The notes under the pieces are model-generated. The model ran no database searches. It saw only the letters and a program-made list of their open reading frames with translations, and had not been told where the DNA came from. DNA of 55,336 nucleotides, taken from positions 1-55,336 of the forward strand of contig PWGO01000004.1 in assembly GCA_003554525.1 (NCBI GenBank), written 5' to 3'. Source of the DNA: Syntrophomonadaceae bacterium (lineage in GTDB: Bacteria > Bacillota > Dethiobacteria > DTU022 > PWGO01). This document shows positions 12,486-43,377 of this stretch, in pieces; the stretch's first letter is position 1, and each line of letters opens with the position of its first letter. Made by a program: the position numbers and the translations under genes.

Positions 12486-12501
12486 TGCAAATTTTGTGCC
12501 A
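12486..12501 (-). promoter_or_regulatory. sigma-54 -24/-12 promoter for the dctPQM / hydrolase / PrpD-PrpD operon
   Basis: The minus strand reads TGGCAC-AAAAT-TTGCA, an exact fit to TGGCAC-N5-TTGCW. It lies 164 nt upstream of the dctP ATG. Confidence 0.75.
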
Positions 12502-12996
12502 AAACTACTGGCCTCAAAATAAACTGGCAATTTTGATATTTAAAAAAGGTTAAAACTTTTTTTTTGGAGCCGGGCAACCGTCATATAGTTGATAGAAAGG
12601 TTATAAATTCAGTCAATCCGGGAGGGAAAAACAAAAATATAAAAAAAGGCTGCGGCTCAATAATTATTACCGGTGTCTAAATAATGTACAGCATTTTAAG
12701 CCAGTTTTTTAAGTTTTATTTTCAAGGGCGGAGTATTCGGGGGGATTATTTAACCCCGGTTACTGTGCATTTACCCTGTACAAAATTTAGACATGTTTCG
12801 CAACCCGACAGGTATGTTGTGTCGAAAAAACAGATATAAATTATTTTTCTAATATTTATATCTGTAGCTTCCAGCTTTGTAACTCCGGCTTTTAATATAA
12901 AAAGGGTTTTTAAGGGAAGGTGCTGACTGTGTTCCCGCCGGTTCCGTGCAATTGTAATTTTAACCTGTAAAGAGTGTTTTATAAAGCGGAATTATG

Positions 12997-13012
12997 TGGC
13001 ATATATTTTGCT
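12997..13012 (+). promoter_or_regulatory. sigma-54 -24/-12 promoter for the MFS transporter gene
   Basis: TGGCAT-ATATT-TTGCT, about 137 nt upstream of ATG 13150. It is divergent from the dctP promoter. Confidence 0.7.
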
Positions 13013-13149
13013 TGTCTTAATTATTATAGAAAAATTTTTATTAGTATAATAGGAGATATTTTGCAGTGGAACTGCCGGAGCTGGCGGTCCAATTAACATC
13101 ACCAGCGTTTACAGTAAAGCAAATAATCCAGTGAACAAGGGAGCCTAAA

Positions 13150-14382
13150 ATGAAAAACAAGGCGCAGGTGCTAATTATAATTTTTCTGGTTCATATTGTT
13201 GCTGCCACTATTCCTTTTGGTATTCCCCCTCTATCTCCTTTTATTTTAGAAGCCCTGGATATAACCAAGGCCGAGTTCGGGCTTTTCATGAGCCTGTTTT
13301 ATATGGGATTGATTCTATTATCTTTCGGCAGCGGATGGATTGTAGATTACCTGGGTATGGGGAAGTCTCTGTTTTTAGGAAAAATAATCCTGGTGATTTC
13401 CGTTAGCATGTTTTCCTTGATAAATCATTACTGGATCATGCTATTTTTTGCCCTGGTAATCGGTGTAGGTTACAGCTTTATTAACCCCGGGACAACAAAA
13501 GCGGTAATGTACTGGTTTCCGGTAAAACACAGGGGAGCCGCAATGGGTTTTAAGCAAACCGGGGTTACTGTGGGAAGTATGCTTGCAGCGTTTGTTTTGC
13601 CTTTCCTGGCTGTAAACCTGGGATGGAGAACGGCTTTACTGCTCATGTCTGTTCTGGCTTTTGTCATGGCTTTTGTATGCAGATTCAAGCTACAGGAGAA
13701 AGGTGATAATAGCCATAATAGCCATAATGAAAGGGATGCGGGCAGGGAAAACGGAGTCAATTTAAATTTAAAAGAAATTAAAGAACGCATCCTGTTTTCG
13801 CTGCGCCAGGTAGATTGCAGGCCTATTGTGGTAGTAAGCCTGCTTATAGGCATACTGGTATTTTCCCAGGCCTCTTTTATCACCTACCTGGTATTGTTTA
13901 TAAATGAAGAGCTGCTATTTCCCGTGGCTGTTTCCACAATAGCCCTGGGTATTGCCCAGGGAAGCGGTACCGCGGGAAGGGTGGCGTGGGGTTATATAAG
14001 TGACCGGGCGCTGAAGGGCAACCGGAAAAAGACTTTGTCTTTAATTGGGACAATAGCCGCCCTGGTTTTTGTATCTTTTTTATTTTTAACCCCTGATTCT
14101 CCTAACATAATTATTTACTTTCTGGCAGGCGCAGGGGGGTTTTCTATCTTGGGCTATAACGCTGTTTACCTTACCCTGATAGGCGAGCTGGCCGGTGAAG
14201 AAAACACGGGGATATCTAGCGGTTTAAGCATTTCCATAACCCACGCCGGTATTTTACTGGTAAACCCTTTGTTCGGGTATCTGGTAGATACCCTGGGAAC
14301 ATTTTACTATTCGTGGCTTTTTCTTTCCGTACTACTGTTTCTCGTTTCTGCTGCTTTTATCTGGATGGATCGAAAGCAGTGA
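13150..14382 (+). CDS. MFS-type transporter
   Basis: 410 aa. About 12 hydrophobic segments flank a central hydrophilic loop (...EKGDNSHNSHNERDAGRE...). GGGAG lies 7 nt upstream of the ATG. Confidence 0.85.
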   Translation: MKNKAQVLIIIFLVHIVAATIPFGIPPLSPFILEALDITKAEFGLFMSLFYMGLILLSFGSGWIVDYLGMGKSLFLGKIILVISVSMFSLINHYWIMLFFALVIGVGYSFINPGTTKAVMYWFPVKHRGAAMGFKQTGVTVGSMLAAFVLPFLAVNLGWRTALLLMSVLAFVMAFVCRFKLQEKGDNSHNSHNERDAGRENGVNLNLKEIKERILFSLRQVDCRPIVVVSLLIGILVFSQASFITYLVLFINEELLFPVAVSTIALGIAQGSGTAGRVAWGYISDRALKGNRKKTLSLIGTIAALVFVSFLFLTPDSPNIIIYFLAGAGGFSILGYNAVYLTLIGELAGEENTGISSGLSISITHAGILLVNPLFGYLVDTLGTFYYSWLFLSVLLFLVSAAFIWMDRKQ

Positions 14383-14670
14383 CCCGCAACTGTACATGTC
14401 CTGATATTGTACATACTTATCAAAATAAAACCGATGCTATGCAAGTTGAAAGCACAGTATGTACATAAAATAGACAGTTTCCTGCCAGGAGGAAACATGT
14501 TTACAGCAGGACTCGAACCAGTATTATTAATATGCAAAATCTAAAAGTTGGAGCATTACGCAATTTAATTATGGAAGCAACAGGGAAGCAAAGTCGTCCC
14601 GGGCAGATACAACAATAAATAAGAGTACATTTGGCTTTCTAAAATAATTTTATGACTGTAGAGATTGTGT

Positions 14671-14836: not shown

Positions 14837-16585
14837 ATGGTTGATTTAAACAGCCTGGTGGATGAGCGAAAATCAACAGATGTGCTGGTAGTAGGTGCGG
14901 GAGGAGCGGGAGCCAGAGCTGCAATAGCTGCCGCGGAAAACGGTTCCAGGGTTACAGTAGCTGTTAAAGATCTTTTTGGACACAGCGGTTGTACCCCGGT
15001 AGCCATGGGCGGGCATGCCGGGTATGTCGATTACCCGGGTGACAGCTGGATGGTTTATTTTACGGACACAGTAGTAGGTGGAGGTTTTTTAAACAATCAA
15101 AAGCTGGTTGAAGTATTAACCAAAGAAGGCAAACAGAGATTTTGTGAACTGGAAGACTGGTGTGCTGCTTTTGACCGGGATGAGGACAACAAAGTGTACC
15201 TCAGAAGATTCGGAGGACATACTTTCAACCGCAGTACTATAAGTGGAGACCGTACCGGACGTGAAATGATGTGGGCCCTTAAAAGGAAGTGTTTTCAAAA
15301 CGAGCTGGTGGAAGTAAAGGACGAAGTTTTTTTGACACGCCTTTTAGTTAAAGAGGGAAAAATAAACGGGGCCATAGGAGTAGATACCCGTAAAGGTACC
15401 GTTATACTGTTTGAATGCCCTACGGTTATTCTGGCCAGCGGGGGCAGCGGCAGGCTTTGGCCTATTACTTTTTCTACCAAAGGTAAAGTTGGGGACGGGC
15501 CATACCTTGCTTTTGAAGCCGGTGCAGAAGTCAGGGATATAGAGTTTTTCCAAATACATCCGACGGGCTGGCTATGGCCTCCGGCCATCAGGGGCCGGGT
15601 TGTTAGTGAAGGGGTTCGTGCTGATGGTGGTATTTTGCGAAATTGTAACGGGGAAAGATTTATGGAAAGGTACGACCCGCTTAAAAAAGAGCTGGCTACC
15701 AGGGATTACGTTTCCCGCTGCATATTTAAAGAGGTGCAGGAAGGCCGGGGAAGCGAACACGGCGGGGCCTACCTGGATGTAACGCATTTTCCGCCCGAGT
15801 TTATTGAAAGAAGATTAAGCTCCGTAATGGAAACTGGCCTGGTTGGGGGAGTGGATATTAGAAAAGAGATGTTTGAAATTATACCGGAGCATCATTATCA
15901 AAACGGCGGGGTTGATATTAACGAGTGGGCCGAGACCAGGATAGAAGGTCTTTACGCCTGCGGTGAAGCGGCCGGAGGAGTGCACGGCGGAAACCGCCTG
16001 GGAAGCAATTCGCTGCCAGACCTGCTGGTGTTTGGTGCCAGGTCGGGGGAAAGAGCCAGTGAATACGCTGCTTCAAACCAGCCTCCCGGCATAGATAAAA
16101 GCCAGGTTAAAGATGAAGTAGAAAAAATTACTGCACCCCTGCAGAACGACAGCGGCATTGATCCTTTTGAAATATCAAGGAAACTTCACCAGGTAATGTT
16201 TGAAGAGATGCATATAGCCCGCAATGAAAAGGGACTGAATAGGTGCTTAAATGATCTTGAAGAGGCGGAAGGTCAACTGGAAAAAATATCTGTTCCGGGG
16301 GGCTTGAGAGGAAACGAAGCCTGGGCTACTGCCATGGAACTGAGGCCACGGGTGACAGTGGGTAAAATGATGGTAAAAGCTTCACTGGAAAGAACGGAAA
16401 GCAGGTCCGCCCTTTTCCGGGAGGATTATCCCAAAATTAACCGGGAAGAGTGGGATAAGAATATACTGGTCAGGAAAGAAGACGGAAACGGCATGAAGCT
16501 TTATACCAAGCCTGTAGAAGTACTGCACCTTACGCCCCAACAGGTTAATCTGCCTTACTTCCCGGTTCCAGGGGAAGACAAGTAG
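14837..16585 (+). CDS. succinate dehydrogenase / fumarate reductase flavoprotein-like subunit (TfrA/SdhA-like)
   Basis: 582 aa. FAD fold VVGAGGAGARAAIAAAENG. GHSGCTPVAMGG aligns with the canonical RSHTVAAQGG. Also FQIHPTG, HHYQNGGV and GVHGGNRLGSNSLPDLLVFG. Confidence 0.85.
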   Translation: MVDLNSLVDERKSTDVLVVGAGGAGARAAIAAAENGSRVTVAVKDLFGHSGCTPVAMGGHAGYVDYPGDSWMVYFTDTVVGGGFLNNQKLVEVLTKEGKQRFCELEDWCAAFDRDEDNKVYLRRFGGHTFNRSTISGDRTGREMMWALKRKCFQNELVEVKDEVFLTRLLVKEGKINGAIGVDTRKGTVILFECPTVILASGGSGRLWPITFSTKGKVGDGPYLAFEAGAEVRDIEFFQIHPTGWLWPPAIRGRVVSEGVRADGGILRNCNGERFMERYDPLKKELATRDYVSRCIFKEVQEGRGSEHGGAYLDVTHFPPEFIERRLSSVMETGLVGGVDIRKEMFEIIPEHHYQNGGVDINEWAETRIEGLYACGEAAGGVHGGNRLGSNSLPDLLVFGARSGERASEYAASNQPPGIDKSQVKDEVEKITAPLQNDSGIDPFEISRKLHQVMFEEMHIARNEKGLNRCLNDLEEAEGQLEKISVPGGLRGNEAWATAMELRPRVTVGKMMVKASLERTESRSALFREDYPKINREEWDKNILVRKEDGNGMKLYTKPVEVLHLTPQQVNLPYFPVPGEDK

Positions 16586-16639
16586 GAGAAGTAATTAAAG
16601 AGTTAATTTATTTGATGAAAAGAAAAGGAGTGAAACCGC

Positions 16640-18178
16640 ATGGGTGAAACTATCAGAGTTGAGATTTTCAGGTTTGACCCGGAATCCGAAGCAAGTGGAA
16701 GTTTTAAGGAATATACCCTGGAAAAAGATGTCCCCGGGATGCGTATATTGATGGCTTTAAATGCTTTAAACCAGAAACAAGAAGCAAATATATCTTACCG
16801 GTTTTCCTGCGAAGAATGGCAGTGTGGTTCCTGTGCCATCCAGGTAAACGGGGTTCCCAAACTGGCTTGTAAGGAGGAAATACACGACGGGGACAGGTTG
16901 GAACCGCTCCCTGTCTTCCCGGTAATAAAAGACCTGATGGTTGATTTAAGTCAAAGCTTTGAAAAACACGTGGAGCTTGCGCGCCTTAAAGTAAAAGAAA
17001 CGGGGGATCCGCTGGATTACGATACCCAGTCCAGGCTGTGGGAAAGTATTAATTGCATGCAGTGTGATATATGTGTGGCTTCCTGTCCTATGATGTTAAC
17101 CACGGGAAATTCCTACAGTTACACGGGGCAGGAGTACATGATACAGCTATACCGCATGGAATTTGATCCCCGCTACGAAAGCGAAGCCTTGAGGAAAACT
17201 ATTGAAGATGGTCTGTGGGAATGCTTTACCTGCCGCCAGTGCGAAAACAATTGTCCCCAGAGGATACCGCTGACCAAAAACATGGTGGATCTGCGTTCGC
17301 GAGTAATGGAGAAAGATCCTACCCTGCTTCCTCCTACCATACGTGATTTAAACGAAAACCTGTTTAAGCACGGCAACGAATTTGGAGTTCCCAGGTTTAA
17401 GAGAACGGAATGGACAGGGGAGCTGGAAGTACCGCAGCTGCAGGACGGAGAAAAGGAATACCTTTATTTTGTAGGGTGTTCCGAATCTTCAGACCAGCTA
17501 AACCAGGCAGCTGCAAGGGCCATGGTTAACGTGCTAAACCGACTTCAAATTAGCTACGGTATACTGGGTGAGGAAGAAGTATGTGCCAGCGATGCGGCCC
17601 TGCAGACGGGAGAAGTTGATTTGTTCGAGGAGCTGGCCGAAACCAATATAAAAACTTTCAAGAAATACAATGTTTCCAGGGTGATTACTTCTTCTCCGCA
17701 CGTTTATCACATTATTAAAAACGAGTATCCACAGTACGGGGGAGAATATGAAGTCATGCATTACGTTCAGCTGCTGGAAAAAGCACTAAAGGAAGGAAAA
17801 CTTGAATTTAACCAATCTATTAACCAGACTGTCACTTATCATGATCCCTGCTTTTTAGGGCGTTACAATGAAATTTACGAAGCGCCGCGCAAAGTTTTGC
17901 AGGGCTTGCCCGGAGTAGAACTGGTAGAAATGGAGAAAAACAGGGAACAAGCCGAGTGCTGCGGCGGCGGAGGAGGTGGAATGTGGATGGAGATACCCCC
18001 CGGGGAGAGAGTTTCCGAGCGCCGGGTACAGCAGGCCGCTGATACCGGTGCAGGCGTCCTGGTAGTAGCTTGCCCGTGGTGCTGCAGCATGTTCGACGAC
18101 GCCATCAAGAATAAAGGCCTGGAAGAAAAATTGCAAGTTAAACACATCCTGGAGCTTATAGACGAGGCCTTGCAGTAG
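16640..18178 (+). CDS. iron-sulfur subunit: SdhB-like N-terminus fused to two CCG (heterodisulfide-reductase-type) domains (TfrB-like)
   Basis: 512 aa. CEEWQCGSCAIQVNGVPKLAC is 2Fe-2S-like. CMQCDICVASCP and CFTCRQCENNCP are 4Fe-4S motifs. The C-terminal half carries ...YFVGC... and ...ECCGGGGG...VACPWCCSMF. No membrane-anchor gene is adjacent. Confidence 0.8.
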   Translation: MGETIRVEIFRFDPESEASGSFKEYTLEKDVPGMRILMALNALNQKQEANISYRFSCEEWQCGSCAIQVNGVPKLACKEEIHDGDRLEPLPVFPVIKDLMVDLSQSFEKHVELARLKVKETGDPLDYDTQSRLWESINCMQCDICVASCPMMLTTGNSYSYTGQEYMIQLYRMEFDPRYESEALRKTIEDGLWECFTCRQCENNCPQRIPLTKNMVDLRSRVMEKDPTLLPPTIRDLNENLFKHGNEFGVPRFKRTEWTGELEVPQLQDGEKEYLYFVGCSESSDQLNQAAARAMVNVLNRLQISYGILGEEEVCASDAALQTGEVDLFEELAETNIKTFKKYNVSRVITSSPHVYHIIKNEYPQYGGEYEVMHYVQLLEKALKEGKLEFNQSINQTVTYHDPCFLGRYNEIYEAPRKVLQGLPGVELVEMEKNREQAECCGGGGGGMWMEIPPGERVSERRVQQAADTGAGVLVVACPWCCSMFDDAIKNKGLEEKLQVKHILELIDEALQ

Positions 18179-18224
18179 AAGATTTTTGATATGATTTTAA
18201 CTTGAGACAGGAGGTGTCTTTAGA

Positions 18225-19490: not shown

Positions 19491-19495
19491 GCCAG

Positions 19496-19822
19496 ATGAA
19501 TGATAAAAAGATCTCTTTTGAAACCAAGACGGCTAAAATAGAAATTAACCTGGACAAGTGTGCAGCAGCCAGGGAGAACAGTCCCAACCCTTCCTGCGGG
19601 TTTATGTGTGTAAAAGCTTGCCGGCTTTACGGTCGTAACGTTTTAAAAATTGAAAACAACCGGCCGGTTTTAACAGTTAGCGACCCGGAAGAAATAAAAC
19701 GGCTGGATAATGAGTGCCTGGCCTGTGAATTTAACTGTAAGATGTATGGTTCTGACTGTATTAACATTGAAATACCTCTGGAGGGGATAGAAGAGTACCG
19801 TAAGAAAGTGCTTTCCAGGTAG
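19496..19822 (+). CDS. small Cys-rich ferredoxin-like protein between the beta-like and alpha-like subunits, unit 1
   Basis: 108 aa with 8 Cys: C-x12-C-x3-C-x3-C ... C-x2-C-x3-C-x6-C. AAGGAGG upstream. It shares LDKC, CV.AC and CLACE..C..YG with 38294..38626. Confidence 0.6.
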   Translation: MNDKKISFETKTAKIEINLDKCAAARENSPNPSCGFMCVKACRLYGRNVLKIENNRPVLTVSDPEEIKRLDNECLACEFNCKMYGSDCINIEIPLEGIEEYRKKVLSR

Positions 19823-19863
19823 AAGTTTCTAAAGCCAAGGGATATTTGAAAGGAGTGAACCGC

Positions 19864-36011: not shown

Positions 36012-36029
36012 AAAGCTCAGACGGGAAAT

Positions 36030-36893: not shown

Positions 36894-37014
36894 GGTAGAA
36901 GTGAAATGGGGACCAGCTGGTAGTAAAGGAAGCCTTAATAATCCGGGAAGTGAAGTTAGTTGCGCATGCGGTACTTTTAAAGGGTAAACATCCAGGAAGG
37001 AGGAGGTTGAATAC

Positions 37015-38286
37015 ATGGCAAGGCTGCTGGAATACCAGGGGAAGGAACTGCTAAAGAAGTCGAAAATAAAAGTGCCCCGTGGGGAAGTAGTTGAAAGCAT
37101 GGAGAGGGCCGTGGCTGCTGCTTTAGAGATAGGTTTCCCGGTTATGGTAAAAGCCCAGGTGTTTCGCGGGGGAAGGGGAAAAGCCGGGGGCATTCATAAA
37201 GCGGAAGATATGACTTCCCTGGATAAGATTTGCAGGACGTTGCTGGGGAACGAGGTGGGCGGGTTAAAGGTAGAGAAGTTGCTGGTGGAAGAAAAGCTGG
37301 ACATAAAAAAAGAGGTTTACCTGGCGATAACGGGAGACCCTCAGACCCGCAAACCGGTGTTAATTTTCAGCGAAACCGGGGGAGTAGATATTGAAGAAGT
37401 TGCCCGTAATAACCCGGAAAAGGTAGTGTCGCAAACCATTGATATTTTAGAAGGACTTTACGATTACCAGGCCCGGAATGCTATTCGGAAGTGTCCCGGT
37501 CTGGACGGCAGAGAAATGGTCAAGTGTGCCGAAGCTGCTACCGGGCTATTTCTTGTTTACCGCGGTTACGATTGCAAACTGGTGGAAATCAACCCGATGG
37601 TTATCACTACCGGGGGTGAACTGCTGGCGGCTGATGCCCGTGTAGACGTGGATGATGATGCCGTATGGCGACACCCGGAGCTGGGCCTTACCGCGGCGGA
37701 AGAGGCGGGAGACCGGCCTTCCACGCTTCTGGAAATGGAGGCCGGCTGTATTGACGAGGGCGATCACCGCGGCTCGGCTCATTTTGTCCAAATAGACCCG
37801 GACGGGGCTTATGCCGAAGAAACCGGTAAAATATCCATAGGGTTTAACACGGTGGGTACCGGCTGCGGCCTGACCTTGCTGGACGAAATAGTTCCGCTGG
37901 GTTACTACCCGGTGAACTTTTGTGATACCTCCGGCAACCCTACCTCCTTGAAAATGTACGCTGCCACCAGGATTATTTTTTCTCAGCCTGGTATAAACGG
38001 CTATATATTTGTCACGGGAGTTGCGGCACAGCTGCTGGATAATACTGCCAGGGGTATAATAAAAGCGCTCCTGGAGTTATACCCGGGAACAGGAGGGCAG
38101 CCAAACATACCCTGTGTTTTTGTTTTTCGGGGACGTTCCGATGAGGTGGCTCTGCAGCTTTTCGAGGAGCACGGAATAAGCAAAAGCCCCATGGTTAAAA
38201 TGATGGGGCGGTGGGCCACGGAAAAAGATGCGGCACGTGCTTTTGACGAATTATACCGGAAGTTTCAACCGGTGGGAAAGGAGTAG
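37015..38286 (+). CDS. ATP-grasp beta-like subunit of an ADP-forming acyl-CoA synthetase (SucC / citryl-CoA-synthetase large-subunit-like), unit 2
   Basis: 423 aa. MARLLEYQGKELLKKSKIKVPRG...KAQVFRGGRGKAGGI. GAAGGAGGAGG upstream. Confidence 0.8.
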   Translation: MARLLEYQGKELLKKSKIKVPRGEVVESMERAVAAALEIGFPVMVKAQVFRGGRGKAGGIHKAEDMTSLDKICRTLLGNEVGGLKVEKLLVEEKLDIKKEVYLAITGDPQTRKPVLIFSETGGVDIEEVARNNPEKVVSQTIDILEGLYDYQARNAIRKCPGLDGREMVKCAEAATGLFLVYRGYDCKLVEINPMVITTGGELLAADARVDVDDDAVWRHPELGLTAAEEAGDRPSTLLEMEAGCIDEGDHRGSAHFVQIDPDGAYAEETGKISIGFNTVGTGCGLTLLDEIVPLGYYPVNFCDTSGNPTSLKMYAATRIIFSQPGINGYIFVTGVAAQLLDNTARGIIKALLELYPGTGGQPNIPCVFVFRGRSDEVALQLFEEHGISKSPMVKMMGRWATEKDAARAFDELYRKFQPVGKE

Positions 38287-38293
38287 GTGGATA

Positions 38294-38626
38294 ATGCCGG
38301 AAATAATGAAGTTTAGAACCATGGGGGAAGCAACGGTAACCGTGGAACTGGATAAGTGCGGGGCATGTCGCAGCAAGGCCTGCGTAGAAGCATGTAGCAA
38401 ACCGCACATGGGTAATATCCTGGAACTGGACGGGGAAGGGAAACCCAGGCTGTTAATGGAGAAAAACAAGGTAAAACGTGGCGGATGTACGGACTGCCTG
38501 GCCTGTGAGCTTGACTGCAGGCTTTACGGTAAAGGGGCGCTAAAAATTAGCCTGGAAATGCCCTACCTGGAAGAACACCTGCGGCAATTAACCGAACGCG
38601 GGGAGAAAATAGTTTACCGGGATTAA
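38294..38626 (+). CDS. small ferredoxin-like protein between the beta-like and alpha-like subunits, unit 2
   Basis: 110 aa from ATG 38294. The track's earlier start overlaps the upstream gene. CGACRSKACVEAC and CTDCLACELDC make 8 Cys, with the second motif canonical CxxCxxCxxxC. It is a homolog of 19496..19822. Confidence 0.65.
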   Translation: MPEIMKFRTMGEATVTVELDKCGACRSKACVEACSKPHMGNILELDGEGKPRLLMEKNKVKRGGCTDCLACELDCRLYGKGALKISLEMPYLEEHLRQLTERGEKIVYRD

Positions 38627-38692
38627 TAACGGCAAATAAGGGAATTTGTCAATTTCCCTTGATCATTAACAAGAAGAGCCAAGGAGGCCTGA

Positions 38693-39595
38693 ATGATGAG
38701 TATTCTATTGGATCAAAATACGGGATGTATGGTCCAGGGGATAACGGGAAGGGAAGCGCGAATACGCGCTGCTACCATGAAAGAATACGGAACCAGGCTT
38801 GTCTGTGGGATTACTCCCGGACGCGGAGGTGAAGTGGTGGAGGGAGATATCCCGGTTTACGATACCGTAGAAGAAGCGAAGGAAAACCACCCTGAGGTAG
38901 CGGCATCCGCGCTAATGGTGCCCGCCGCACTGGTGAAAAATGCCGCTTTTGAAGCCATTGATGCCGGTATAAAAGTTATTCTTTTAATTCCCGAAAGAGT
39001 TCCCCAGCAGGATATGCTGGAGATTATCGAGAGAAGCAGGAAAAAAGGTAGTTTTGTGGTTGGCCCCAACTCTATCGGGCTGATCAGCCCCGGGAAAGCC
39101 CTGCTGGGTATGATAGGGGGCACCCCGGAGCTGGCGCGGGAGCTTTTTAAAGAAGGCGAGTGCGGAGTGATGTCGCGAAGCGGAGGGCATACTACCACTA
39201 CTTCTTACTACCTTACCAGGGAAGGTGTGGGACAGAGTACTTGTGTAGCAGTGGGAGGCGACGCTTTTGTGGGCTCTTCTTTCGACGAGCTACTGCCCCT
39301 TTTTGAAACAGACCCGCAGACAAGGGCGGTGGTGATTTTTGGCGAACCGGGCACTACTGCCGAGGAAGATGTGGCCCGGATGATGGAAGAGAAAAAGTTT
39401 ACCAAGCCGCTTATCGCTTACGTAGCGGGGAAATACGTGCGCCCGGGTATGCGCTTTGGACATGCGGGAGCCATAATAAACAAGGGTGAAGGCAGGGTGG
39501 AAGATAAATTGCACAGGTTGAGAAAAGCAGGAGTTCACGTGGTGGATCACCTGGGGGATGTGGGAAAGGTAGCCCGTGAGCTTAACCTGAAATAA
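38693..39595 (+). CDS. CoA-binding alpha-like subunit (SucD / citryl-CoA-synthetase small-subunit-like), unit 2
   Basis: 300 aa. CMVQGITGREA, SRSGGHTTT and RFGHAGAII (phosphohistidine loop). AAGGAGG upstream. Confidence 0.85.
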   Translation: MMSILLDQNTGCMVQGITGREARIRAATMKEYGTRLVCGITPGRGGEVVEGDIPVYDTVEEAKENHPEVAASALMVPAALVKNAAFEAIDAGIKVILLIPERVPQQDMLEIIERSRKKGSFVVGPNSIGLISPGKALLGMIGGTPELARELFKEGECGVMSRSGGHTTTTSYYLTREGVGQSTCVAVGGDAFVGSSFDELLPLFETDPQTRAVVIFGEPGTTAEEDVARMMEEKKFTKPLIAYVAGKYVRPGMRFGHAGAIINKGEGRVEDKLHRLRKAGVHVVDHLGDVGKVARELNLK

Positions 39596-39608
39596 GGTGG
39601 GTAGACCT

Positions 39609-40760
39609 ATGTGGAGCCGCGAACAGGATCTTTTAAAATGTGTAATCATGCGGGGTGGGACCAGTAAAGCGGTGTTTTTTAAATCCAACGAGCTTCCCGG
39701 GAATCTGGCAGAGCGGGAAAGACTGATTTTAAAGGTTTTTGGTAGCCCTGATTTAAGGCAGATAGATGGACTGGGTGGAGCCGACGTTACTACCAGCAAG
39801 GTGGCTATTATCGGGCCTTCTACCAGGAAAGATGCAGATGTGGATTATACTTTTGGACAGGTTGGCTTGAACCAACCCCGGGTGGACTGGAATGTGAACT
39901 GCGGCAATATTTCTGCGGCAGTGGGCCCTTTTGCTGTAGACGAAGGGATGGTTCCTCCTGCAGAGGGGGAAACCAGGGTGCGTATATTTAATACCAATAC
40001 GCAGAAGATTATTACCGCCTTTGTTCCCGTGATTTCCGGGAAAGCAGCGGTAAAAGGTGAATACGCTATAGACGGTGTGCCGGGGCGGGGGGGGCGGATT
40101 AACCTGGACTACTCGCAGACAGTGGGGGCCGCCACGGGCAAGCTCCTGCCCACGGGAAACGCCGTAGATTATATCGAGCACAGCGGAAAGAAAGTGCCGG
40201 TTTCAGTGGTGGATGTAGCCAATCCTTCCCTGTTTATTGCTGCCGAAGAGGTAGGGCTTACCGGTAAAGAAGCCAGGCCGGCGCTGTCTTCTTGCACGGA
40301 GGTACTGCAGCATCTGGAAGAAATCCGTTGCATAGCCGCGGTAAAATGCGGTTTTGTAAAGAACCCGGGGGAGGCAACGGAGAAAAGCCCGGTCCGGCCC
40401 AAGGTTATCCTGGTAGCGGCTCCGGTTGATTATGAGGATTACGCAAGCGGTGAAATCATTGCCGGGGATAAAGTGGATTTCCTTTCCCGGGTGATCTGGA
40501 ACCAGGCCCCTGTGGAAACGCACACGGGAACAGGGGCGGTTTGTGCTGCTGCTGCGGCGCTGGTGCCAGGAACTGTTTTGAACATGGTAGCCTCCGAAAA
40601 AGCCAAAAACAGCGGCCTGGTGCGCATAGGACATCCCCGCGGCATCCTGGAACTGGAGTGCGAAACAAAGATGGAAGGCGGAAGTATTTCTTTCCAGCGG
40701 ATCTTTTTTGGAAGGACTGCCAGGAGAATTATGGAGGGATATGTATATATAACGGTTTAA
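39609..40760 (+). CDS. PrpF / 3-methylitaconate-isomerase / aconitate-isomerase family protein
   Basis: Start at ATG 39609, with AAGGTGG 8 nt upstream. LKCVIMRGGTSKAVFF is the family's N-terminal signature. About 383 aa. Confidence 0.85.
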   Translation: MWSREQDLLKCVIMRGGTSKAVFFKSNELPGNLAERERLILKVFGSPDLRQIDGLGGADVTTSKVAIIGPSTRKDADVDYTFGQVGLNQPRVDWNVNCGNISAAVGPFAVDEGMVPPAEGETRVRIFNTNTQKIITAFVPVISGKAAVKGEYAIDGVPGRGGRINLDYSQTVGAATGKLLPTGNAVDYIEHSGKKVPVSVVDVANPSLFIAAEEVGLTGKEARPALSSCTEVLQHLEEIRCIAAVKCGFVKNPGEATEKSPVRPKVILVAAPVDYEDYASGEIIAGDKVDFLSRVIWNQAPVETHTGTGAVCAAAAALVPGTVLNMVASEKAKNSGLVRIGHPRGILELECETKMEGGSISFQRIFFGRTARRIMEGYVYITV

Positions 40761-40787
40761 AATACAAACCAAACGGAGGAATGGCCT

Positions 40788-41651
40788 ATGATAGCCCAGT
40801 TTGTTTTGACCTCCAGCGAAGCCAAGAAATTTATATCCCTGGGGCTGGCCCGGCATCCCCTGGTACAGGAAGCTGTGGAAGATTCTATGGTAGTTATACA
40901 TCCCAGCAGCAGCACATATTTCCTGGTGGAGGCGCTTACCGGTTATGTACCCGGGACAAAGGTGTGGGTAGCGGGAGTTATTGTGCCGCGCGGGGCCTGC
41001 GTGGAAGCAAATACGCGGCCCACGCGCCGGGAAGGTGAAGCCCTGACTACTTCCCTGAAAGACCCGGGAATGTTTCCATACTCCTGGGTAATAAAAAAGG
41101 GGAGCCTGTATACTGGTATAAAACTCGATGATATCCTGAAAGAGATGGACGAAAAATCGGTCTATGTAAAAGGTGTTAATGCCGTAGATACAGCCAAAAA
41201 TGCAGGGGTGCTTCGTGCCAGCATGGCCGAAGGTACCATCGGCAAGGTTTTAAAGGTGTCGGAAAAAAATAAATTTAAAATTATTTGCCCTGTGGGAACG
41301 GAAAAACTGGTATGGGGAAGCTTGGCGGAAAAAGACGGTTTTAGCTCAAAAAAGAAAGACTACGCTATGGGTTGCAGCGTCAATCTGTTTACGTTAAAGC
41401 CGTTGGTAATAAACGAAACGGAAGCCGCATCTCTTCTGGGTGAAGTCAACGCAGAAGTTATAGCTTCAGGTGGACTGGCCGGAGCGGAAGGAGGGGTAAC
41501 GCTCCTGGTAGAAGGAGAAAAAGAAGAAGTAAGAAAAGTTATCCAGGCCGCAGAACTTAGCAAGGGAGCCCGCCTGCCGGAGGTGCTGTTGGCCCCGTGC
41601 AGTGACTGTGGAGTGCCCACCTGCGAGTTTAAGGGTTGGGAAGAAGTATAA
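40788..41651 (+). CDS. conserved hypothetical protein with a C-terminal Cys cluster (paralog of 2511..3422)
   Basis: 287 aa. See 2511..3422 for the shared blocks. The tail is APCSDCGVPTCEF. It is the last gene of the operon. Confidence 0.7.
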   Translation: MIAQFVLTSSEAKKFISLGLARHPLVQEAVEDSMVVIHPSSSTYFLVEALTGYVPGTKVWVAGVIVPRGACVEANTRPTRREGEALTTSLKDPGMFPYSWVIKKGSLYTGIKLDDILKEMDEKSVYVKGVNAVDTAKNAGVLRASMAEGTIGKVLKVSEKNKFKIICPVGTEKLVWGSLAEKDGFSSKKKDYAMGCSVNLFTLKPLVINETEAASLLGEVNAEVIASGGLAGAEGGVTLLVEGEKEEVRKVIQAAELSKGARLPEVLLAPCSDCGVPTCEFKGWEEV

Positions 41652-41973
41652 GTGTATTTTTAAGTATTAAATTTAGAAATACGGCTGTTAATATGGGTGG
41701 TAATATATAGATATTAAGCTGCTCCTGTTCCCGTTTGAGGCAACAGTTAAGAGTGGCTTTTTTTTAATTTTGGCTTTATAATTAATGTACCCTCAGGCAG
41801 CCGGGTTATAGCAGGAAAGATGGAAATAAATGATACCGGGTGGAGGTATCAGTTTCCTGAAGGAAAAAGGGGCTCTTTATGGAAGTACCAAAATATCGTA
41901 TCAGAATTTTAACACAAGGCTGGGGGAATAAAGAAAAAAAACAACCTTCTTAAACGAAACGAGGGGTTTTAAT

Positions 41974-43377
41974 ATGAAATTAGAACAAAACTTGGATATA
42001 AAACAAGCCCAGAAATTAGTAATGACTCCCGAGTTGAAACAGGCTATTGCTCTTTTACAGATGCCTGCTGTACAGTTGCTGGAATTTTTACAAGAAGAAA
42101 TGATTAACAACCCGGTCCTGGAGTGGGAAGAAGATAAGGAAAATAGCGGGGAATACGATGAAAAAGTAGAAACCGGGGAAGAAGAGTTTCCCTGGGAATA
42201 TTACTTTTCGGAAAATAACTATGAAGAAAATACCGGCGTGGCTTCTGACGGATATTCTACCAGCCATGTGCTGGAGAATACTTATAGTAATGAAGAATCC
42301 CTGCTGGATGAACTCTGCAGCCAGGTAAGGATGTTGTTTGCAAGAAAAGACCATTCTCTGGGTGAATACCTGATAGGCTGTCTGGACGCGGATGGATACC
42401 TCAGGCTGGAATTGCAGGAAATAGCTTATGCTTTAAAAGTACCGAAAAGAAGGATCAAAGAAGTTTTAAAATTAATCCAGGATTACCTGGAACCGCCGGG
42501 TATAGGTGCGCGAAGTTTAAAAGAGTGTCTGTTGATACAGATGAGAAGAAACATGGATTACCCGGAACTGGTCGAAGAACTGTTAAACAACTATCTTCCT
42601 GCGGTAGCTGACGGGCGATACAGTTACCTGTCTGGACAGTTAGATGTGAGTCTCGAAAAAATATTTGAAGCGGTTGATTATATCAAAACCCTGAATCCCA
42701 GGCCGGGAAATCTGTGGGGCTCTTTACTGGATGTGCGGTTTATAAACCCCGATGTAATTGTAGAAAAAGTAGAAGGGGAATACGTGATCCATATTCCGGA
42801 AAACAGTTCACCTTACATTAAAATAAATCCTTACTACCGCAGCCTGCTCCATGATAACAAAAGCGAAGGCTCTGTTTATATTAAAAAATGCCTGGACCGG
42901 GCCATGTGGTTGTTGAAAAGCATAGAGCAGCGCCGTATTACTCTATACCGGGTTTCGGAAATTATTGTAAATGAACAACAAGGGTTTTTAGAGCACGGCT
43001 TAAAATATTTATCGCCACTTACCTTGAAGAAAGTTGCCGCTTCGCTGGAAATGCATGAATCCACGGTAAGTCGTGCAACTTCTAACAAGTATATGCAGAC
43101 ACCGTTGGGTCTGTTTCCCTTTAAATTTTTTTTTACCAGCAGCCTGCAGGGAGAAGACGGCCAGAATTATTCTTCTACCAGCATAAAATCTTATATCAAG
43201 GAGCTAATTTCGCAGGAAAGCCCGGAAAAACCTTACAGCGACAGCAAGCTTGCTGGACTATTAAACCAGGAAGGAATTGAAATCTCCCGACGAACTGTGG
43301 CCAAGTACAGGGAAGAACTCTATATTCCATCTTCGCAGAAAAGGAAACAAAAAAGCAGGAAAGAAGTAACGATATAA
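41974..43377 (+). CDS. rpoN: RNA polymerase sigma-54 factor
   Basis: 467 aa. Region I is LKQAQKLVMTPELKQAIALLQM, followed by an acidic linker. The C-terminal RpoN box is ISRRTVAKYREEL. Confidence 0.9.
   Translation: MKLEQNLDIKQAQKLVMTPELKQAIALLQMPAVQLLEFLQEEMINNPVLEWEEDKENSGEYDEKVETGEEEFPWEYYFSENNYEENTGVASDGYSTSHVLENTYSNEESLLDELCSQVRMLFARKDHSLGEYLIGCLDADGYLRLELQEIAYALKVPKRRIKEVLKLIQDYLEPPGIGARSLKECLLIQMRRNMDYPELVEELLNNYLPAVADGRYSYLSGQLDVSLEKIFEAVDYIKTLNPRPGNLWGSLLDVRFINPDVIVEKVEGEYVIHIPENSSPYIKINPYYRSLLHDNKSEGSVYIKKCLDRAMWLLKSIEQRRITLYRVSEIIVNEQQGFLEHGLKYLSPLTLKKVAASLEMHESTVSRATSNKYMQTPLGLFPFKFFFTSSLQGEDGQNYSSTSIKSYIKELISQESPEKPYSDSKLAGLLNQEGIEISRRTVAKYREELYIPSSQKRKQKSRKEVTI

What the first reader, a model, noticed from the sequence alone, without database searches (positions are those of the whole stretch)
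12486..43377. Five near-consensus sigma-54 promoters, two enhancer-binding proteins and rpoN itself tie ~40 kb into one regulon-like island
Reading the intergenic regions, I found TGGCAY-N5-TTGCW in front of every major transcription unit. The sites are:
- 12501..12486 on the minus strand: TGGCAC-AAAAT-TTGCA, upstream of dctP
- 12997: TGGCAT-ATATT-TTGCT, upstream of the MFS gene
- 14671: TGGCAT-GTTAT-TTGCA, upstream of the flavoprotein operon
- 26737: TGGCAC-GGGAA-TTGCA, upstream of the symporter operon
- 32031: TGGCAC-CGATT-TTGCA, upstream of the 10-gene operon

All lie 75-165 nt upstream of the first start codon and have the correct GG-N10-GC spacing. Two bEBPs with intact GAFTGA loops (3451..5568 and 24590..26479) are embedded in the island, and rpoN (41974..43377) directly follows it. 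This density of sigma-54 promoters around one metabolic theme is unusual. It implies tight, effector-gated expression of the whole set.
Basis: partly seen in the sequence, partly recalled or inferred. Interest (0 to 1): 0.72.

Follow-up and report, generated by a model that had tools for sequence, protein, structure and literature searches.

The report
Sigma-54 promoter cluster driving organic-acid catabolism

Summary
TGGCAY-N5-TTGCW occurs exactly five times in 55 kb (0.12 expected). All five sites are intergenic, co-oriented with the downstream genes, and end 75-163 nt before a start codon. No exact match lies in coding DNA. Both bEBPs have intact Walker A/B and GAFTGA motifs, and RpoN passes its curated cutoff.

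New here: the promoters fall into two enhancer classes.
- P1, P2 and P3 carry paired TGT-N11-ACA sites (TGTACA-N5-TAGACA, 3 exact against 0.00 expected). A 75%-identical relative keeps this promoter and site arrangement with the same 63-64 bp spacing.
- P4 carries GTTTCA/GAAACA half-sites like the Salmonella PrpR enhancer. Five orthologous loci of the PrpR-like bEBP2 share them.
- P5 is only weakly linked to this second class.

So this looks like at least two adjacent sub-regulons, not one. The bEBP genes, rpoN, an AOR unit and possibly the fumarase sub-cluster lack -24/-12 elements. The rpoN adjacency has no support as functional.

The enzymes point to itaconate/citraconate/mesaconate/aconitate-type acid catabolism. 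Published Clostridiales surveys already describe EBPs controlling 2-6 co-localized operons, so this is a new member of a known kind, of modest interest.

The parts
12486..12501 (-). P1: sigma-54 promoter TGGCAC-AAAAT-TTGCA, 163 nt before the dctP start (operon A)
   Evidence: Exact consensus match. Intergenic and co-oriented. Geometry.
12997..13012 (+). P2: sigma-54 promoter TGGCAT-ATATT-TTGCT, 137 nt before the MFS transporter start; divergent from P1
14671..14686 (+). P3: sigma-54 promoter TGGCAT-GTTAT-TTGCA, 150 nt before the TfrA-like flavoprotein start (operon C)
   Evidence: The equivalent promoter TGGCACGGATTTTGCA is conserved in relative L017.
26737..26752 (+). P4: sigma-54 promoter TGGCAC-GGGAA-TTGCA, 158 nt before a 30-aa ORF and 296 nt before the SSF symporter (operon D)
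   Evidence: Five bEBP2-ortholog loci (plus L012, a near-duplicate of L011) have a -24/-12 element (degenerate -12 in L010) in the same position.
32031..32046 (+). P5: sigma-54 promoter TGGCAC-CGATT-TTGCA, 75 nt before the first gene of the 10-gene operon E
   Evidence: No comparative support could be obtained.
12674..12690 (-). UAS class A, site 1 (TGTACATTATTTAGACA; TGT-N11-ACA), about 183 bp from P1 and 317 bp from P2
   Evidence: Exact pattern 3 against 0.00 expected. Distances.
12777..12793 (+). UAS class A, site 2 (TGTACAAAATTTAGACA), about 214 bp from P2 and 286 bp from P1; 103 bp from site 1
14397..14413 (-). UAS class A, site 3, degenerate (TGTACAATATCAGGACA), about 268 bp upstream of P3
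   Evidence: One of only four TGTMCW-N5-NNGACA matches in the window.
14460..14476 (+). UAS class A, site 4 (TGTACATAAAATAGACA), about 205 bp upstream of P3; 63 bp from site 3
   Evidence: L017 has two TGT-N11-ACA sites 64 bp apart upstream of its promoter.
26524..26606 (.). UAS class B cluster upstream of P4: TGTTTC x3, GAAACA, TGTTTA/TAAACA and TGTTAAAACA, 136-213 bp upstream
   Evidence: GTTTCA/GAAACA 6-mers are shared by 6 of 7 bEBP2-type UAS windows, 0 of 300 shuffles. They resemble the Salmonella PrpR enhancer CGTTTCATGAAACG (PMC4987338).
31865..31976 (.). Candidate UAS upstream of P5: TGTTTAAAC (31865), TGTTGCAACA (31917), TGTTTA x2. Tentative.
   Evidence: TGTTNNAACA is not enriched overall (3 against 1.04 expected), so only the position supports it.
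3451..5568 (-). bEBP1: (CBS-like)-PAS-PAS-AAA+-HTH_8 sigma-54 activator; proposed regulator of P1-P3. The true start codon may lie downstream of the TTG.
   Evidence: Pfam. GESGTGKE, GAFTGA and Walker B. The best NCBIfam match is PrdR, below cutoff. No close ortholog was found.
24590..26479 (+). bEBP2: PrpR_N-PAS-AAA+-HTH_8 sigma-54 activator; proposed regulator of P4 and possibly P5
   Evidence: Pfam. GETGTGKE and GAFTGA. PrpR TIGR02329 scores 450.9 bits, below the 499.2 cutoff. Orthologs at 45-64% identity have conserved downstream promoters.
24490..24498 (+). Extended -10-like element TGgTATAAT in front of bEBP2 (probable own sigma-A promoter)
   Evidence: Read directly from the sequence. 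Inference only.
41974..43377 (+). rpoN (sigma-54); a separate unit with no -24/-12 element upstream
   Evidence: Pfam three domains. TIGR02395 scores 425 against a cutoff of 277. RpoN box SRRTVAKYR. Upstream region.
5693..12322 (-). Operon A: DctPQM TRAP transporter, isochorismatase-family amidase, two IRG1/PrpD-family proteins
13150..14382 (+). MFS transporter (single-gene unit driven by P2)
14837..24489 (+). Operon C: TfrA/TfrB-like flavoprotein and FeS-CCG subunit, SucC-like, 108-aa Cys-rich ORF, SucD-like, CitE/HpcH lyase, a 364-bp gap, class I fumarase alpha and beta, DUF1847
   Evidence: The same module is one operon in L018 and L020-L026.
26911..31761 (+). Operon D: 30-aa hydrophobic ORF, SSF symporter, nitrilase-family hydrolase, tungsten-type AOR
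32122..41651 (+). Operon E (10 genes): amidase, IRG1/PrpD-like, aconitase-family large and small subunits, citryl-CoA lyase, SucC-like, Cys-rich ORF, SucD-like, 3-methylitaconate-isomerase-like, 287-aa unknown
466..3431 (-). 306-aa unknown (paralog of the 287-aa protein) and a second AOR, downstream of bEBP1; no sigma-54 promoter detected

Best explanation
**Setting.** This is a chromosomal catabolic gene cluster of an uncultured Bacillota anaerobe. The exact rpoN product is found on JGI metagenome 3300000557 contigs named SL_8KL_010_SED. Transcription of its five main units depends on sigma-54 RNA polymerase and at least two co-localized, ligand-sensing enhancer-binding proteins.

**Mechanism.** This part is established knowledge of the class and is inferred for this locus. 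E-sigma54 sits as a closed complex on each TGGCAY-N5-TTGCW element. A bEBP hexamer assembles on upstream sites about 110-320 bp away, loops over, and uses ATP hydrolysis through its GAFTGA loop to open the promoter once its sensor domain has bound a pathway metabolite.

**Proposed wiring.**
- Sub-regulon A: paired TGT-N11-ACA sites (TGTACA-N5-TAGACA) serve the divergent P1/P2 pair (TRAP-transporter operon and MFS transporter) and P3 (TfrAB-like dehydrogenase, acid-CoA ligase, lyase and hydratase operon). They are most likely bound by bEBP1, whose closest named family (PrdR) uses TGT-N10-12-ACA sites.
- Sub-regulon B: GTTTCA/GAAACA and TGTTnnAACA sites serve P4 (symporter, nitrilase, AOR) and, tentatively, P5 (10-gene isomerase, hydratase, ligase and lyase operon). 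They are bound by the PrpR-like bEBP2.
- The regulators and rpoN appear to have their own sigma-A-type promoters.

**Pathway.** The encoded pathway most likely degrades unsaturated or branched C4-C6 di- and tricarboxylates (itaconate, citraconate, mesaconate or aconitate type, possibly arriving as amides or nitriles) to acetyl-CoA plus pyruvate or oxaloacetate.

**Status.** Shown: the sequence features, their statistics and their conservation. Inferred: activity, regulator-to-promoter assignment, effectors and substrates.
For: **Promoters**
- 5 exact matches against 0.12 expected.
- They are the top five scorers, all intergenic and co-oriented.
- No extra sites appear at one mismatch beyond chance.
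- At most 1 unexplained match occurs in 326 kb of other DNA, and none in 75 kb of homologous enzyme operons.

**Machinery**
- RpoN is above its equivalog cutoff.
- Both bEBPs have the Sigma54_activat, AAA_lid and HTH_8 domains with intact GAFTGA and Walker motifs.

**UAS class A**
- TGTACA-N5-TAGACA occurs 3 times against 0.00 expected.
- The four TGTMCW-N5-NNGACA matches in the window all lie 183-317 bp upstream of P1-P3.
- L017 (75%-identical TfrA) keeps a perfect -24/-12 element plus two TGT-N11-ACA sites 64 bp apart, against 63 bp in the window.
- Published Clostridiales UAS are typically TGT-N10-12-ACA, multiple, and 100-250 bp upstream; PrdR is in that group (PMC6615313).

**UAS class B**
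- Five bEBP2-ortholog loci (plus L012, a near-duplicate of L011) show the layout bEBP, then GAAACA/TGTTTC cluster, then -24/-12 (degenerate -12 in L010), then aconitase-family hydratase, lyase and SSF symporter; a hairpin precedes the -24/-12 in L009, L010, L011 and L015.
- The 6-mers are shared in 6 of 7 UAS windows with 0 of 300 shuffles.
- The Salmonella PrpR enhancer is CGTTTCATGAAACG, with 2-methylcitrate as signal (PMC4987338).

**Pathway**
- Citryl-CoA lyase scores above cutoff.
- The isomerase best matches 3-methylitaconate isomerase 3g7k at 382 bits.
- The PrpD-family proteins best match IRG1/CAD, and the amidase best matches N-carbamoylsarcosine amidohydrolase.
Against: - There are no expression data of any kind.
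- bEBP1 has no close ortholog (40% identity or less), and L017's fragment shows no bEBP. The bEBP1-to-class-A assignment therefore rests on DBD family resemblance and on elimination.
- P5 lacks GAAACA/GTTTCA, and TGTTNNAACA is not enriched overall (3 against 1.04 expected).
- No relative of operon E was found.
- P3's upstream region also contains a GTTTCC-N8-GGAAAC repeat and GAAACATGTTTA, so cross-regulation by bEBP2 cannot be excluded.
- Other bEBPs elsewhere in the genome are invisible from this window.
- Sigma-70-like matches occur at background frequency in the same spacers, so they neither support nor exclude dual promoters.
- All enzyme hits except citryl-CoA lyase, the LeuCD/aconitase-family subunits, DctP (generic subfamily models) and RpoN are below the curated equivalog cutoffs, so the substrate is uncertain.
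Confidence: 0.7

Rival explanations
1. One joint regulon. Both bEBPs act on all five promoters, for example as hetero-oligomers or through overlapping site recognition, so the island behaves as a single regulon.
For: - The two bEBPs are paralogs, 39% identical over 452 aa.
- P3's upstream region carries both TGT-N11-ACA sites and GTTTCC-N8-GGAAAC/GAAACATGTTTA elements.
- RedR1/RedR2 of Aromatoleum form hetero-oligomers on three sigma-54 promoters (PMC10084136).
- The enzyme sets of operons A, C and E are paralogous and plausibly belong to one metabolic network.
Against: - The class A motif is absent upstream of P4 and P5.
- Class B 6-mers are sparse upstream of P1 and P2.
- At 39% identity the two bEBPs are far from the near-identity of RedR1/RedR2.
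- Their sensor architectures differ: CBS-like-PAS-PAS against PrpR_N-PAS.
Confidence: 0.12
2. The promoters are real, but one or more are served by bEBPs encoded outside the window. bEBP1 and/or bEBP2 would then control something else, or only the adjacent unit.
For: - Clostridia-like genomes can encode up to 35 EBPs, and 38 of 263 analysed EBPs are not clustered with their targets (PMC6615313).
- bEBP1 is 7 kb from the P1/P2 UAS, at the far end of operon A.
- P5 has no convincing bEBP2-type UAS.
- L017 shows the P3-type promoter with no bEBP on the 7.8 kb visible.
Against: - Most EBP targets are co-localized with the EBP gene.
- Exactly two UAS classes match exactly two local bEBPs.
- The bEBP2-then-promoter adjacency is conserved in five orthologous loci.
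Confidence: 0.15
3. The matches are fortuitous AT-rich intergenic sequences. The operons are transcribed from ordinary sigma-A promoters.
For: - The intergenic DNA is AT-rich, and sigma-70-like hexamer pairs occur in the same spacers (for example 14500-14527).
- No transcript data exist.
Against: - 5 matches against 0.12 expected, with 0 of 100 shuffles reaching 5.
- Orientation and distance are correct for all five sites.
- UAS are present at canonical distances.
- The promoter is conserved in relatives at the same positions.
- rpoN and two intact bEBPs lie in the same window.
- Sigma-70-like hits are not above shuffle expectation.
Confidence: 0.03
4. The linkage of rpoN to the cluster is functional. 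The sigma factor, its activators and their targets would form a co-inherited, self-contained module, possibly acquired horizontally.
For: - rpoN begins 323 nt after operon E.
- This differs from the usual Firmicutes rpoN context of yhbJ/cggR-glycolysis genes (PMC3162934).
Against: - No integrase, transposase or flanking repeat was found.
- GC content is 0.41-0.52 throughout, with continuous GC skew.
- rpoN has no -24/-12 element and has its own -10-like TATAAT.
- The adjacency is seen only in contigs of the same organism.
- Searches for relatives by RpoN found nothing.
- Housekeeping genes (tsaEBD, rimI, DEAD helicase, tRNA-Thr) follow immediately.
Confidence: 0.08

Closest known systems
Sigma-54/EBP regulons of Clostridiales (Nie, Dong & Yang 2019, BMC Genomics 20:565; PMC6615313)
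   Same: - The promoter consensus is the same (TTGGCATNNNNNTTGCT).
- The EBPs are one-component, with PAS, CBS or PrpR_N sensor domains and a Fis-type HTH.
- UAS are mostly 100-250 bp upstream and usually multiple.
- 15 EBP groups use TGT-N10-12-ACA.
- 35% of EBPs control 2-6 operons, mostly co-localized.
- The targets are fermentation and catabolic operons, including AOR genes.
   Different: - None of the 39 named EBP groups in that survey has these target operons (TfrAB-like/acid-CoA ligase/lyase, TRAP or SSF transporter, aconitase-family hydratase).
- bEBP1 has no ortholog in the databases searched.
- Five promoters lie within 20 kb, and rpoN is adjacent.
PrpR / prpBCDE of Salmonella enterica and E. 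coli (Palacios & Escalante-Semerena 2000, 2004, as tabulated in PMC4987338)
   Same: - bEBP2 has the PrpR_N sensor domain followed by AAA+ and HTH_8.
- Its candidate sites contain the GTTTCA/TGAAAC half-sites of the PrpR enhancer CGTTTCATGAAACG.
- The regulated enzymes act on citrate-like tri- and dicarboxylates (PrpD-family, PrpF-family, aconitase-family), in line with a tricarboxylate effector such as 2-methylcitrate.
   Different: - bEBP2 scores below the PrpR equivalog cutoffs (450.9 against 499.2; 428 against 703).
- It has an extra PAS domain.
- There is no prpB, prpC or prpE.
- The PrpD- and PrpF-family proteins are closer to IRG1/CAD and to 3-methylitaconate isomerase.
- The half-sites are arranged differently, as dispersed repeats or TGTTnnAACA rather than one 14-bp palindrome.
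RedR1/RedR2 control of anaerobic resorcinol degradation in Aromatoleum anaerobium (PMC10084136)
   Same: Two bEBPs encoded within a catabolic cluster drive several (three) sigma-54 promoters that express an anaerobic degradation pathway.
   Different: - RedR1 and RedR2 are near-identical GAF-PAS proteins that share promoters and hetero-oligomerize.
- Here the two bEBPs are only 39% identical, have different sensors, and appear to use different UAS.
- The phylum and the substrate class also differ.
Eubacterium barkeri nicotinate-fermentation late steps (3-methylitaconate isomerase Mii, dimethylmaleate hydratase DmdAB, dimethylmalate lyase) and bacterial itaconate/methylsuccinate degradation (PMC12290011)
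   Same: - The isomerase best matches Mii (3g7k, 382 bits).
- The LeuD/DmdB-family hydratase subunits match.
- bEBP2 orthologs elsewhere sit beside aconitase-family hydratases and PEP-mutase/ICL-type lyases, or HMGL-type lyases with CoA-transferases.
- The CitE-like lyase hits the RipC/Ccl itaconate-degradation lyase model.
   Different: - The window has no B12 mutase and no nicotinate dehydrogenase or enamidase.
- CoA activation uses SucCD/citryl-CoA-synthetase-like ligases with an extra Cys-rich small ORF instead of CoA-transferases.
- Cleavage uses a citryl-CoA-lyase-type enzyme.
- The substrate has not been demonstrated.

Membership tests
Sigma-54 (-24/-12) promoter class | GG and GC dinucleotides exactly 10 nt apart within TGGCAC-N5-TTGCW-like elements | tested here: met
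   Five exact matches. Their flanks agree with the Clostridiales consensus TTGGCATNNNNNTTGCT.
Sigma-54 (-24/-12) promoter class | Located in non-coding DNA upstream of, and co-oriented with, a transcription unit | tested here: met
   All five are intergenic and end 75-163 nt before a start codon.
Sigma-54 (-24/-12) promoter class | The genome encodes RpoN and at least one GAFTGA-containing bEBP | tested here: met
Sigma-54 (-24/-12) promoter class | Upstream activator sequences roughly 100-250 bp upstream | tested here: met
   Met for P1-P4. Inconclusive for P5.
Sigma-54 (-24/-12) promoter class | Transcription start about 12 nt downstream of the GC, with rpoN- and bEBP-dependent expression | not testable with these tools
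   This needs 5'-RACE or dRNA-seq and genetics.
Bacterial enhancer-binding protein (AAA+ sigma-54 activator) | Sigma54_activat AAA+ domain with Walker A, Walker B and an intact GAFTGA loop, plus a C-terminal HTH_8 | tested here: met
   bEBP1 has GESGTGKE, GAFTGA and FLDEIGDM. bEBP2 has GETGTGKE, GAFTGA and FLDEISEM. Pfam E-values are 2e-68 and 5e-70.
PrpR (propionate catabolism regulator, TIGR02329 / NF011953) | Score at or above the curated equivalog cutoff | tested here: not met
   bEBP2 scores 450.9 bits against a cutoff of 499.2, and 428.2 against 703. It is PrpR-like, not PrpR.
PrpR (propionate catabolism regulator, TIGR02329 / NF011953) | N-terminal PrpR_N sensor domain | tested here: met
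   PF06506 E = 6e-35, residues 29-188.
PrpR (propionate catabolism regulator, TIGR02329 / NF011953) | Adjacent to prpBCDE methylcitrate-cycle genes | tested here: not met
   There is no PrpB, PrpC or PrpE. The PrpD- and PrpF-family genes present are closer to IRG1/CAD and Mii.
PrdR (proline reductase regulator, NF041552) | Score at or above the equivalog cutoff, and adjacency to prd genes | tested here: not met
   bEBP1 scores 507 bits against a cutoff of 795. There are no prd genes in the window.
RpoN / sigma-54 (TIGR02395) | AID, core-binding and DNA-binding domains, an RpoN box, and a score above cutoff | tested here: met
   Three Pfam domains. 425.3 bits against 277.35. SRRTVAKYR is present.
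Mobile genomic island | Integrase or transposase, a flanking tRNA or direct repeats, and deviant composition | tested here: not met
   No such genes appear among the annotated ORFs. GC is 0.41-0.52 with continuous skew. The only tRNA lies 4 kb beyond rpoN. 'Island' here means a gene cluster only.

The most novel reading that the evidence does not exclude
The cluster encodes a not-yet-described anaerobic route for branched or unsaturated C5/C6 di- and tricarboxylates, possibly delivered as amides or nitriles. Its components would include:
- IRG1-like proteins, a 3-methylitaconate-isomerase-like enzyme and aconitase-family hydratases;
- two SucCD-like acid-CoA ligases that each carry an extra Cys-rich, ferredoxin-like small subunit;
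- CitE-type and citryl-CoA-type lyases;
- a TfrAB-like dehydrogenase;
- a conserved 290-aa protein family with no annotation.

The route would be wired entirely to sigma-54 through two new EBP specificities: an orphan CBS-PAS-PAS EBP, and a PrpR-like EBP family dedicated to C5-dicarboxylate operons across Bacillota.
Probability: 0.25. Interest if true: 0.55.

Novelty: new member of a known kind. Interest (0 to 1): 0.33.

Why it matters
**If the predictions hold**
- They add two EBP specificities and their enhancer motifs to the sigma-54 regulatory map of anaerobic Bacillota.
- One is a PrpR-like family that recurs next to aconitase-family hydratase, lyase and symporter operons in several Bacillota lineages. 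That gives a transferable rule for annotating those loci.
- They flag a widely conserved but uncharacterized enzyme module (SucC-fd-SucD-CitE-FumAB-unk/DUF1847-TfrAB) as a regulated catabolic pathway worth biochemical study.
- Different lineages run the same enzyme module with or without sigma-54 control.

**What it does not change**
- It does not change how sigma-54 is understood to work.
- The architecture of several co-localized promoters per EBP is already documented.

Tried and rejected
1. **Close relatives in representative genomes.** The search with bEBP2 returned only AAA+ domain matches. The search with RpoN returned nothing, because the tool chose non-conserved peptides. The organism and the conservation of the rpoN context could therefore not be established.
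2. **Relatives of operon E.** A metagenome scan with the PrpD-like protein found nothing, so P5 has no comparative support.
3. **bEBP1 orthologs.** The best hits are 40% identical or less, so no comparative UAS derivation was possible. L017's partial first ORF turned out to be DctM-like, not a bEBP.
4. **Sigma-70 promoter and terminator scans.** Counts are at shuffle expectation (26 against 22.4, 29 against 23.6, 21 against 18.6), so they are uninformative for unit boundaries. The exception is individual hairpins at 26676-26697 and 31809-31853.
5. **TGTT-N2-AACA as a statistically supported shared UAS for P4 and P5.** Rejected as significant: 3 matches against 1.04 expected. It is kept only as a positional hint.
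6. **A regulatory cascade (bEBP1 to P3 to bEBP2 to P4/P5).** Weakened by the extended -10-like TGgTATAAT directly upstream of bEBP2.
7. **Structure prediction of the 306/287-aa unknown family.** From a two-sequence alignment the mean pLDDT was 34 and pTM 0.28. The model is unusable, so no fold search was run. The PDB sequence search was also negative.
8. **Rfam.** Only tRNA-Thr was found, so there is no riboswitch or leader in the long 5' regions or the 364-bp gap.
9. **A mobile-island reading.** Rejected: no mobility genes and uniform composition.
10. **Source study.** The soda-lake sediment metagenomics paper does not mention the sample identifier, so the soda-lake origin is inferred from the record name only.

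Full report
**1. Observation**

Dinucleotide-preserving shuffles give 0.12 matches on average, and none of 100 reached five.

In a relaxed weighted scan these five sites are the five best scorers. All lie in intergenic DNA and point toward the adjacent gene, while the next-best matches fall inside coding sequence. Allowing one mismatch adds only two hits, both antisense inside genes, against 4.06 expected.

The -12 element ends 163, 137, 150, 158 and 75 nt before the next start codon. For the fourth site that start codon belongs to a 30-aa hydrophobic ORF (26911-27003). The symporter gene itself begins 296 nt downstream.

It occurs six times. Five of those lie directly after a bEBP gene or in front of the ortholog of the operon C flavoprotein. 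That is 0.18 per 10 kb, against 2.55 per 10 kb between 12.4 and 32.1 kb of the window. In 75 kb of homologous enzyme operons from other organisms there was not one near-consensus match.

**2. The machinery**

- The ORF at 41974-43377 has the three sigma-54 domains and an RpoN box (SRRTVAKYR). It scores 425 bits on TIGR02395, whose cutoff is 277.
- bEBP1 (3451-5568, minus strand) has the architecture weak CBS-like signal, PAS, PAS, AAA+, HTH_8.
- bEBP2 (24590-26479) has the architecture PrpR_N, PAS, AAA+, HTH_8.
- Both carry Walker A, GAFTGA and Walker B motifs.
- Neither reaches a curated equivalog cutoff. bEBP2 scores 450.9 on PrpR (cutoff 499.2), and bEBP1 scores 507 on PrdR (cutoff 795).

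**3. Gene content**

The transcription units, from Pfam, NCBIfam and PDB matches, are as follows.

| Unit | Promoter | Content |
|---|---|---|
| Operon A (minus strand) | P1 | DctPQM TRAP transporter, an isochorismatase-family amidase, two MmgE/PrpD-family proteins |
| MFS unit | P2 | One MFS transporter |
| Operon C | P3 | TfrA/TfrB-like flavoprotein and FeS-CCG subunit, a SucC-like/108-aa Cys-rich/SucD-like trio, a CitE/HpcH lyase, class I fumarase alpha and beta, DUF1847 |
| Operon D | P4 | Small ORF, SSF symporter, nitrilase-family hydrolase, tungsten-type AOR |
| Operon E (10 genes) | P5 | Amidase, MmgE/PrpD-family protein, aconitase-family large and small subunits, citryl-CoA lyase (302.7 bits, cutoff 261), a second SucC-like/Cys-rich/SucD-like trio, a PrpF-family isomerase, a 287-aa unknown |

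Three PDB comparisons sharpen the theme:
- The isomerase matches Eubacterium barkeri 3-methylitaconate isomerase far better than PrpF (382 against about 238 bits).
- The PrpD-family protein best matches B. subtilis IRG1, IDS-epimerase and cis-aconitate decarboxylase.
- The amidase best matches N-carbamoylsarcosine amidohydrolase.

Together this points to catabolism of unsaturated or branched C4-C6 di- and tricarboxylates (itaconate, citraconate, mesaconate or aconitate type), perhaps entering as amides or nitriles. The exact substrate is not established.

The operon C module recurs at 55-70% identity as a single contiguous operon in more than ten metagenomic loci.

**4. Enhancers: two classes**

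*Class A.* TGTACA-N5-TAGACA is a TGT-N11-ACA dyad. It occurs three times exactly against 0.00 expected.
- Two copies, 103 bp apart, lie between the divergent P1 and P2.
- One copy lies upstream of P3. A degenerate fourth copy sits 63 bp from it.
- A slightly relaxed form (TGTMCW-N5-NNGACA, defined after seeing the sites) has only four matches in the whole window, and these are the four sites.
- Their centres lie 183-317 bp from the -24 GG.
- The closest relative of the flavoprotein (L017, 75% identity) has a perfect TGGCACGGATTTTGCA 120 nt before its gene. Two TGT-N11-ACA sites lie upstream of it, 64 bp apart.

So the promoter, the motif class and the site spacing are all conserved in an independent contig.

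*Class B.* Orthologs of bEBP2 at 45-64% identity were found in Calderihabitans maritimus and in several Bacillota metagenome contigs.
- In five orthologous loci with readable downstream sequence (L012 near-duplicates L011) the bEBP stop codon is followed by a cluster of GAAACA/TGTTTC and TGTTnnAACA elements.
- A hairpin follows that cluster in L009, L010, L011 and L015.
- A -24/-12 element follows (TGGCAT, TGGCAC or TGGTAC variants; L010's -12 element is degenerate, TTGAA).
- The operon after it encodes aconitase-family hydratase subunits, a lyase, and a small ORF plus SSF symporter.
- GTTTCA/TGAAAC and GAAACA/TGTTTC are present in six of seven such UAS windows. None of 300 shuffles reached that.
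- These are the half-sites of the Salmonella PrpR enhancer CGTTTCATGAAACG, whose effector is 2-methylcitrate (PMC4987338 Table 1).

Window P4 has this cluster 136-213 bp upstream. P5 has only TGTTTA/TAAACA variants and a TGTTGCAACA palindrome. TGTT-N2-AACA is not enriched overall (3 against 1.04 expected), so linking P5 to bEBP2 is tentative.

**5. Proposed mechanism**

By the established mechanism of the class, E-sigma54 forms closed complexes at the five promoters. bEBP hexamers assembled on the UAS remodel those complexes by ATP hydrolysis when their sensor domains bind a pathway metabolite.

The most economical wiring is:
- bEBP1, whose PrdR-like DNA-binding region belongs to a group that uses TGT-N10-12-ACA (PMC6615313), acts on class A sites and so on P1, P2 and P3.
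- bEBP2 (PrpR-like) acts on class B sites and so on P4, and perhaps P5.

Several other observations bear on the circuit:
- bEBP2 has an extended -10-like TGgTATAAT of its own.
- A long-loop hairpin followed by a T-rich run separates operon A from bEBP1.
- rpoN is preceded by a T-run and a TATAAT but no -24/-12 element. The regulators and the sigma factor therefore appear to be expressed independently.
- P3's upstream region also contains GTTTCC-N8-GGAAAC and GAAACATGTTTA next to its class A site, so some cross-talk cannot be excluded.

What is shown is the sequence features, their statistics and their conservation. What is inferred is promoter activity, the regulator assignment, the effectors and the substrates.

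**6. Comparison with what is known**

Nie et al. 2019 reconstructed sigma-54 regulons in 57 Clostridiales. They report:
- 1-35 EBPs per genome;
- PAS, CBS and PrpR_N sensor domains;
- 65% of EBPs with one target operon and 35% with two to six, mostly co-localized;
- multiple UAS, mostly 100-250 bp upstream;
- TGT-N10-12-ACA motifs in 15 groups.

Two bEBPs driving three sigma-54 promoters of an anaerobic catabolic pathway are characterized experimentally in Aromatoleum. The architecture here is therefore typical of the class.

What is not in those catalogues is the target set and the two EBP specificities. In addition, more distant relatives carry the same enzyme module without a detectable sigma-54 promoter where the operon start is visible (L018).

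The rpoN adjacency differs from the usual Firmicutes context, which is yhbJ/cggR (PMC3162934). It could be seen only in contigs of this same organism, and nothing indicates that it is functional. There are no mobility genes and the composition is uniform, so 'island' should be read simply as a gene cluster.

**7. Verdict**

The promoters and the effector-sensing activators are credible. However, the cluster is better described as at least two adjacent EBP sub-regulons. Not every unit has a sigma-54 promoter, the density is not exceptional for this kind of organism, and the role of rpoN's position is unsupported.
- Novelty: a new member of a known kind.
- Interest: modest. The main value is a transferable annotation rule for PrpR-like EBP loci in Bacillota and a pointer to an uncharacterized, widely conserved acid-degradation module.

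Noticed in passing
window 2511-3431 (-) and 40788-41651 (+); L018 7551-8441; L017 3950-4816; L020 and L024: A conserved protein family of about 290 aa has no Pfam, NCBIfam or PDB sequence match. The two window paralogs are 42% identical, and both are 39-44% identical to proteins embedded between FumB and TfrA in the homologous operons. They share a C-terminal Cys pair. In other loci DUF1847 occupies the same slot.
   Followed up: partly
window 19496-19822 and 38228-38626; L018 3803-4132; L007 875-1207: A small Cys-rich ORF of about 108-132 aa sits between the SucC-like and SucD-like genes in both paralogous ligase sets, with a weak 4Fe-4S dicluster signal. It is 68% identical in L018. This suggests a three-subunit acid-CoA ligase with a ferredoxin-like component.
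   Followed up: partly
window 26911-27003: A 30-aa hydrophobic ORF (MLMLIIWLVFSVLFLGGVFYYVLTQSGPDW) with a good RBS lies just before the SSF symporter. Relatives have 85-89-aa small ORFs in the same position (L009, L011, L015), probably a symporter accessory subunit.
   Followed up: partly
window 14477-14506: An inverted repeat GTTTCC-N8-GGAAAC is followed by GAAACATGTTTA, immediately downstream of the class A UAS of P3. It resembles PrpR-type half-sites and could be a second regulator's site or just a hairpin.
   Followed up: partly
window 21734-22097: A 364-bp non-coding gap inside operon C, between the lyase and the fumarase genes, has no sigma-54 site, no Rfam hit and only an AT-rich inverted repeat (21923-21972). 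In relatives these genes are contiguous. Whether a separate promoter sits here is unknown.
   Followed up: partly
window 39597-40760 and 32829-34202: The 'PrpF' and 'PrpD' family proteins are much closer to 3-methylitaconate isomerase (3g7k, 382 bits) and to IRG1/cis-aconitate decarboxylase/IDS-epimerase than to the methylcitrate-cycle enzymes. Annotation transferred from the family names would be misleading.
   Followed up: yes
L013 and L014 (JGI 3300000557 and 3300027784): A 64%-identical homolog of bEBP2 occurs in the same sediment metagenome on low-GC (0.34-0.35) short contigs. It presumably comes from a different organism. The 227 nt available downstream show no -24/-12 element.
   Followed up: partly
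window 8912-8927 (+): TGGTACAGTTTTTGCT lies antisense inside the operon A amidase gene. It has the TGGTAC variant of the -24 element seen in relatives L010 and L011. It is most likely chance, since one-mismatch hits are below expectation.
   Followed up: partly
window 43527-45050: The gene right after rpoN belongs to the HpaB family. From general knowledge, in strict anaerobes this family includes 4-hydroxybutyryl-CoA dehydratase. Its scores are well below the HpaB equivalog cutoffs.
   Followed up: no
window 45051-45934 and 47399-48210: Two large apparent gaps follow. By offset from L007's called genes, the first holds a roughly 65-aa cold-shock-domain gene, and a strong 13-bp-stem hairpin lies at 45823-45852. 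The second holds tRNA-Thr(TGT) at 47603-47677.
   Followed up: no
L018 11778-19019: In one relative the conserved enzyme module is followed by ETF alpha and beta, an Amidohydro_1 enzyme, an isochorismatase-family amidase and an OYE/pyridine-nucleotide-disulfide oxidoreductase. This hints that the module serves degradation of a nitrogen-containing, possibly heterocyclic, precursor.
   Followed up: no
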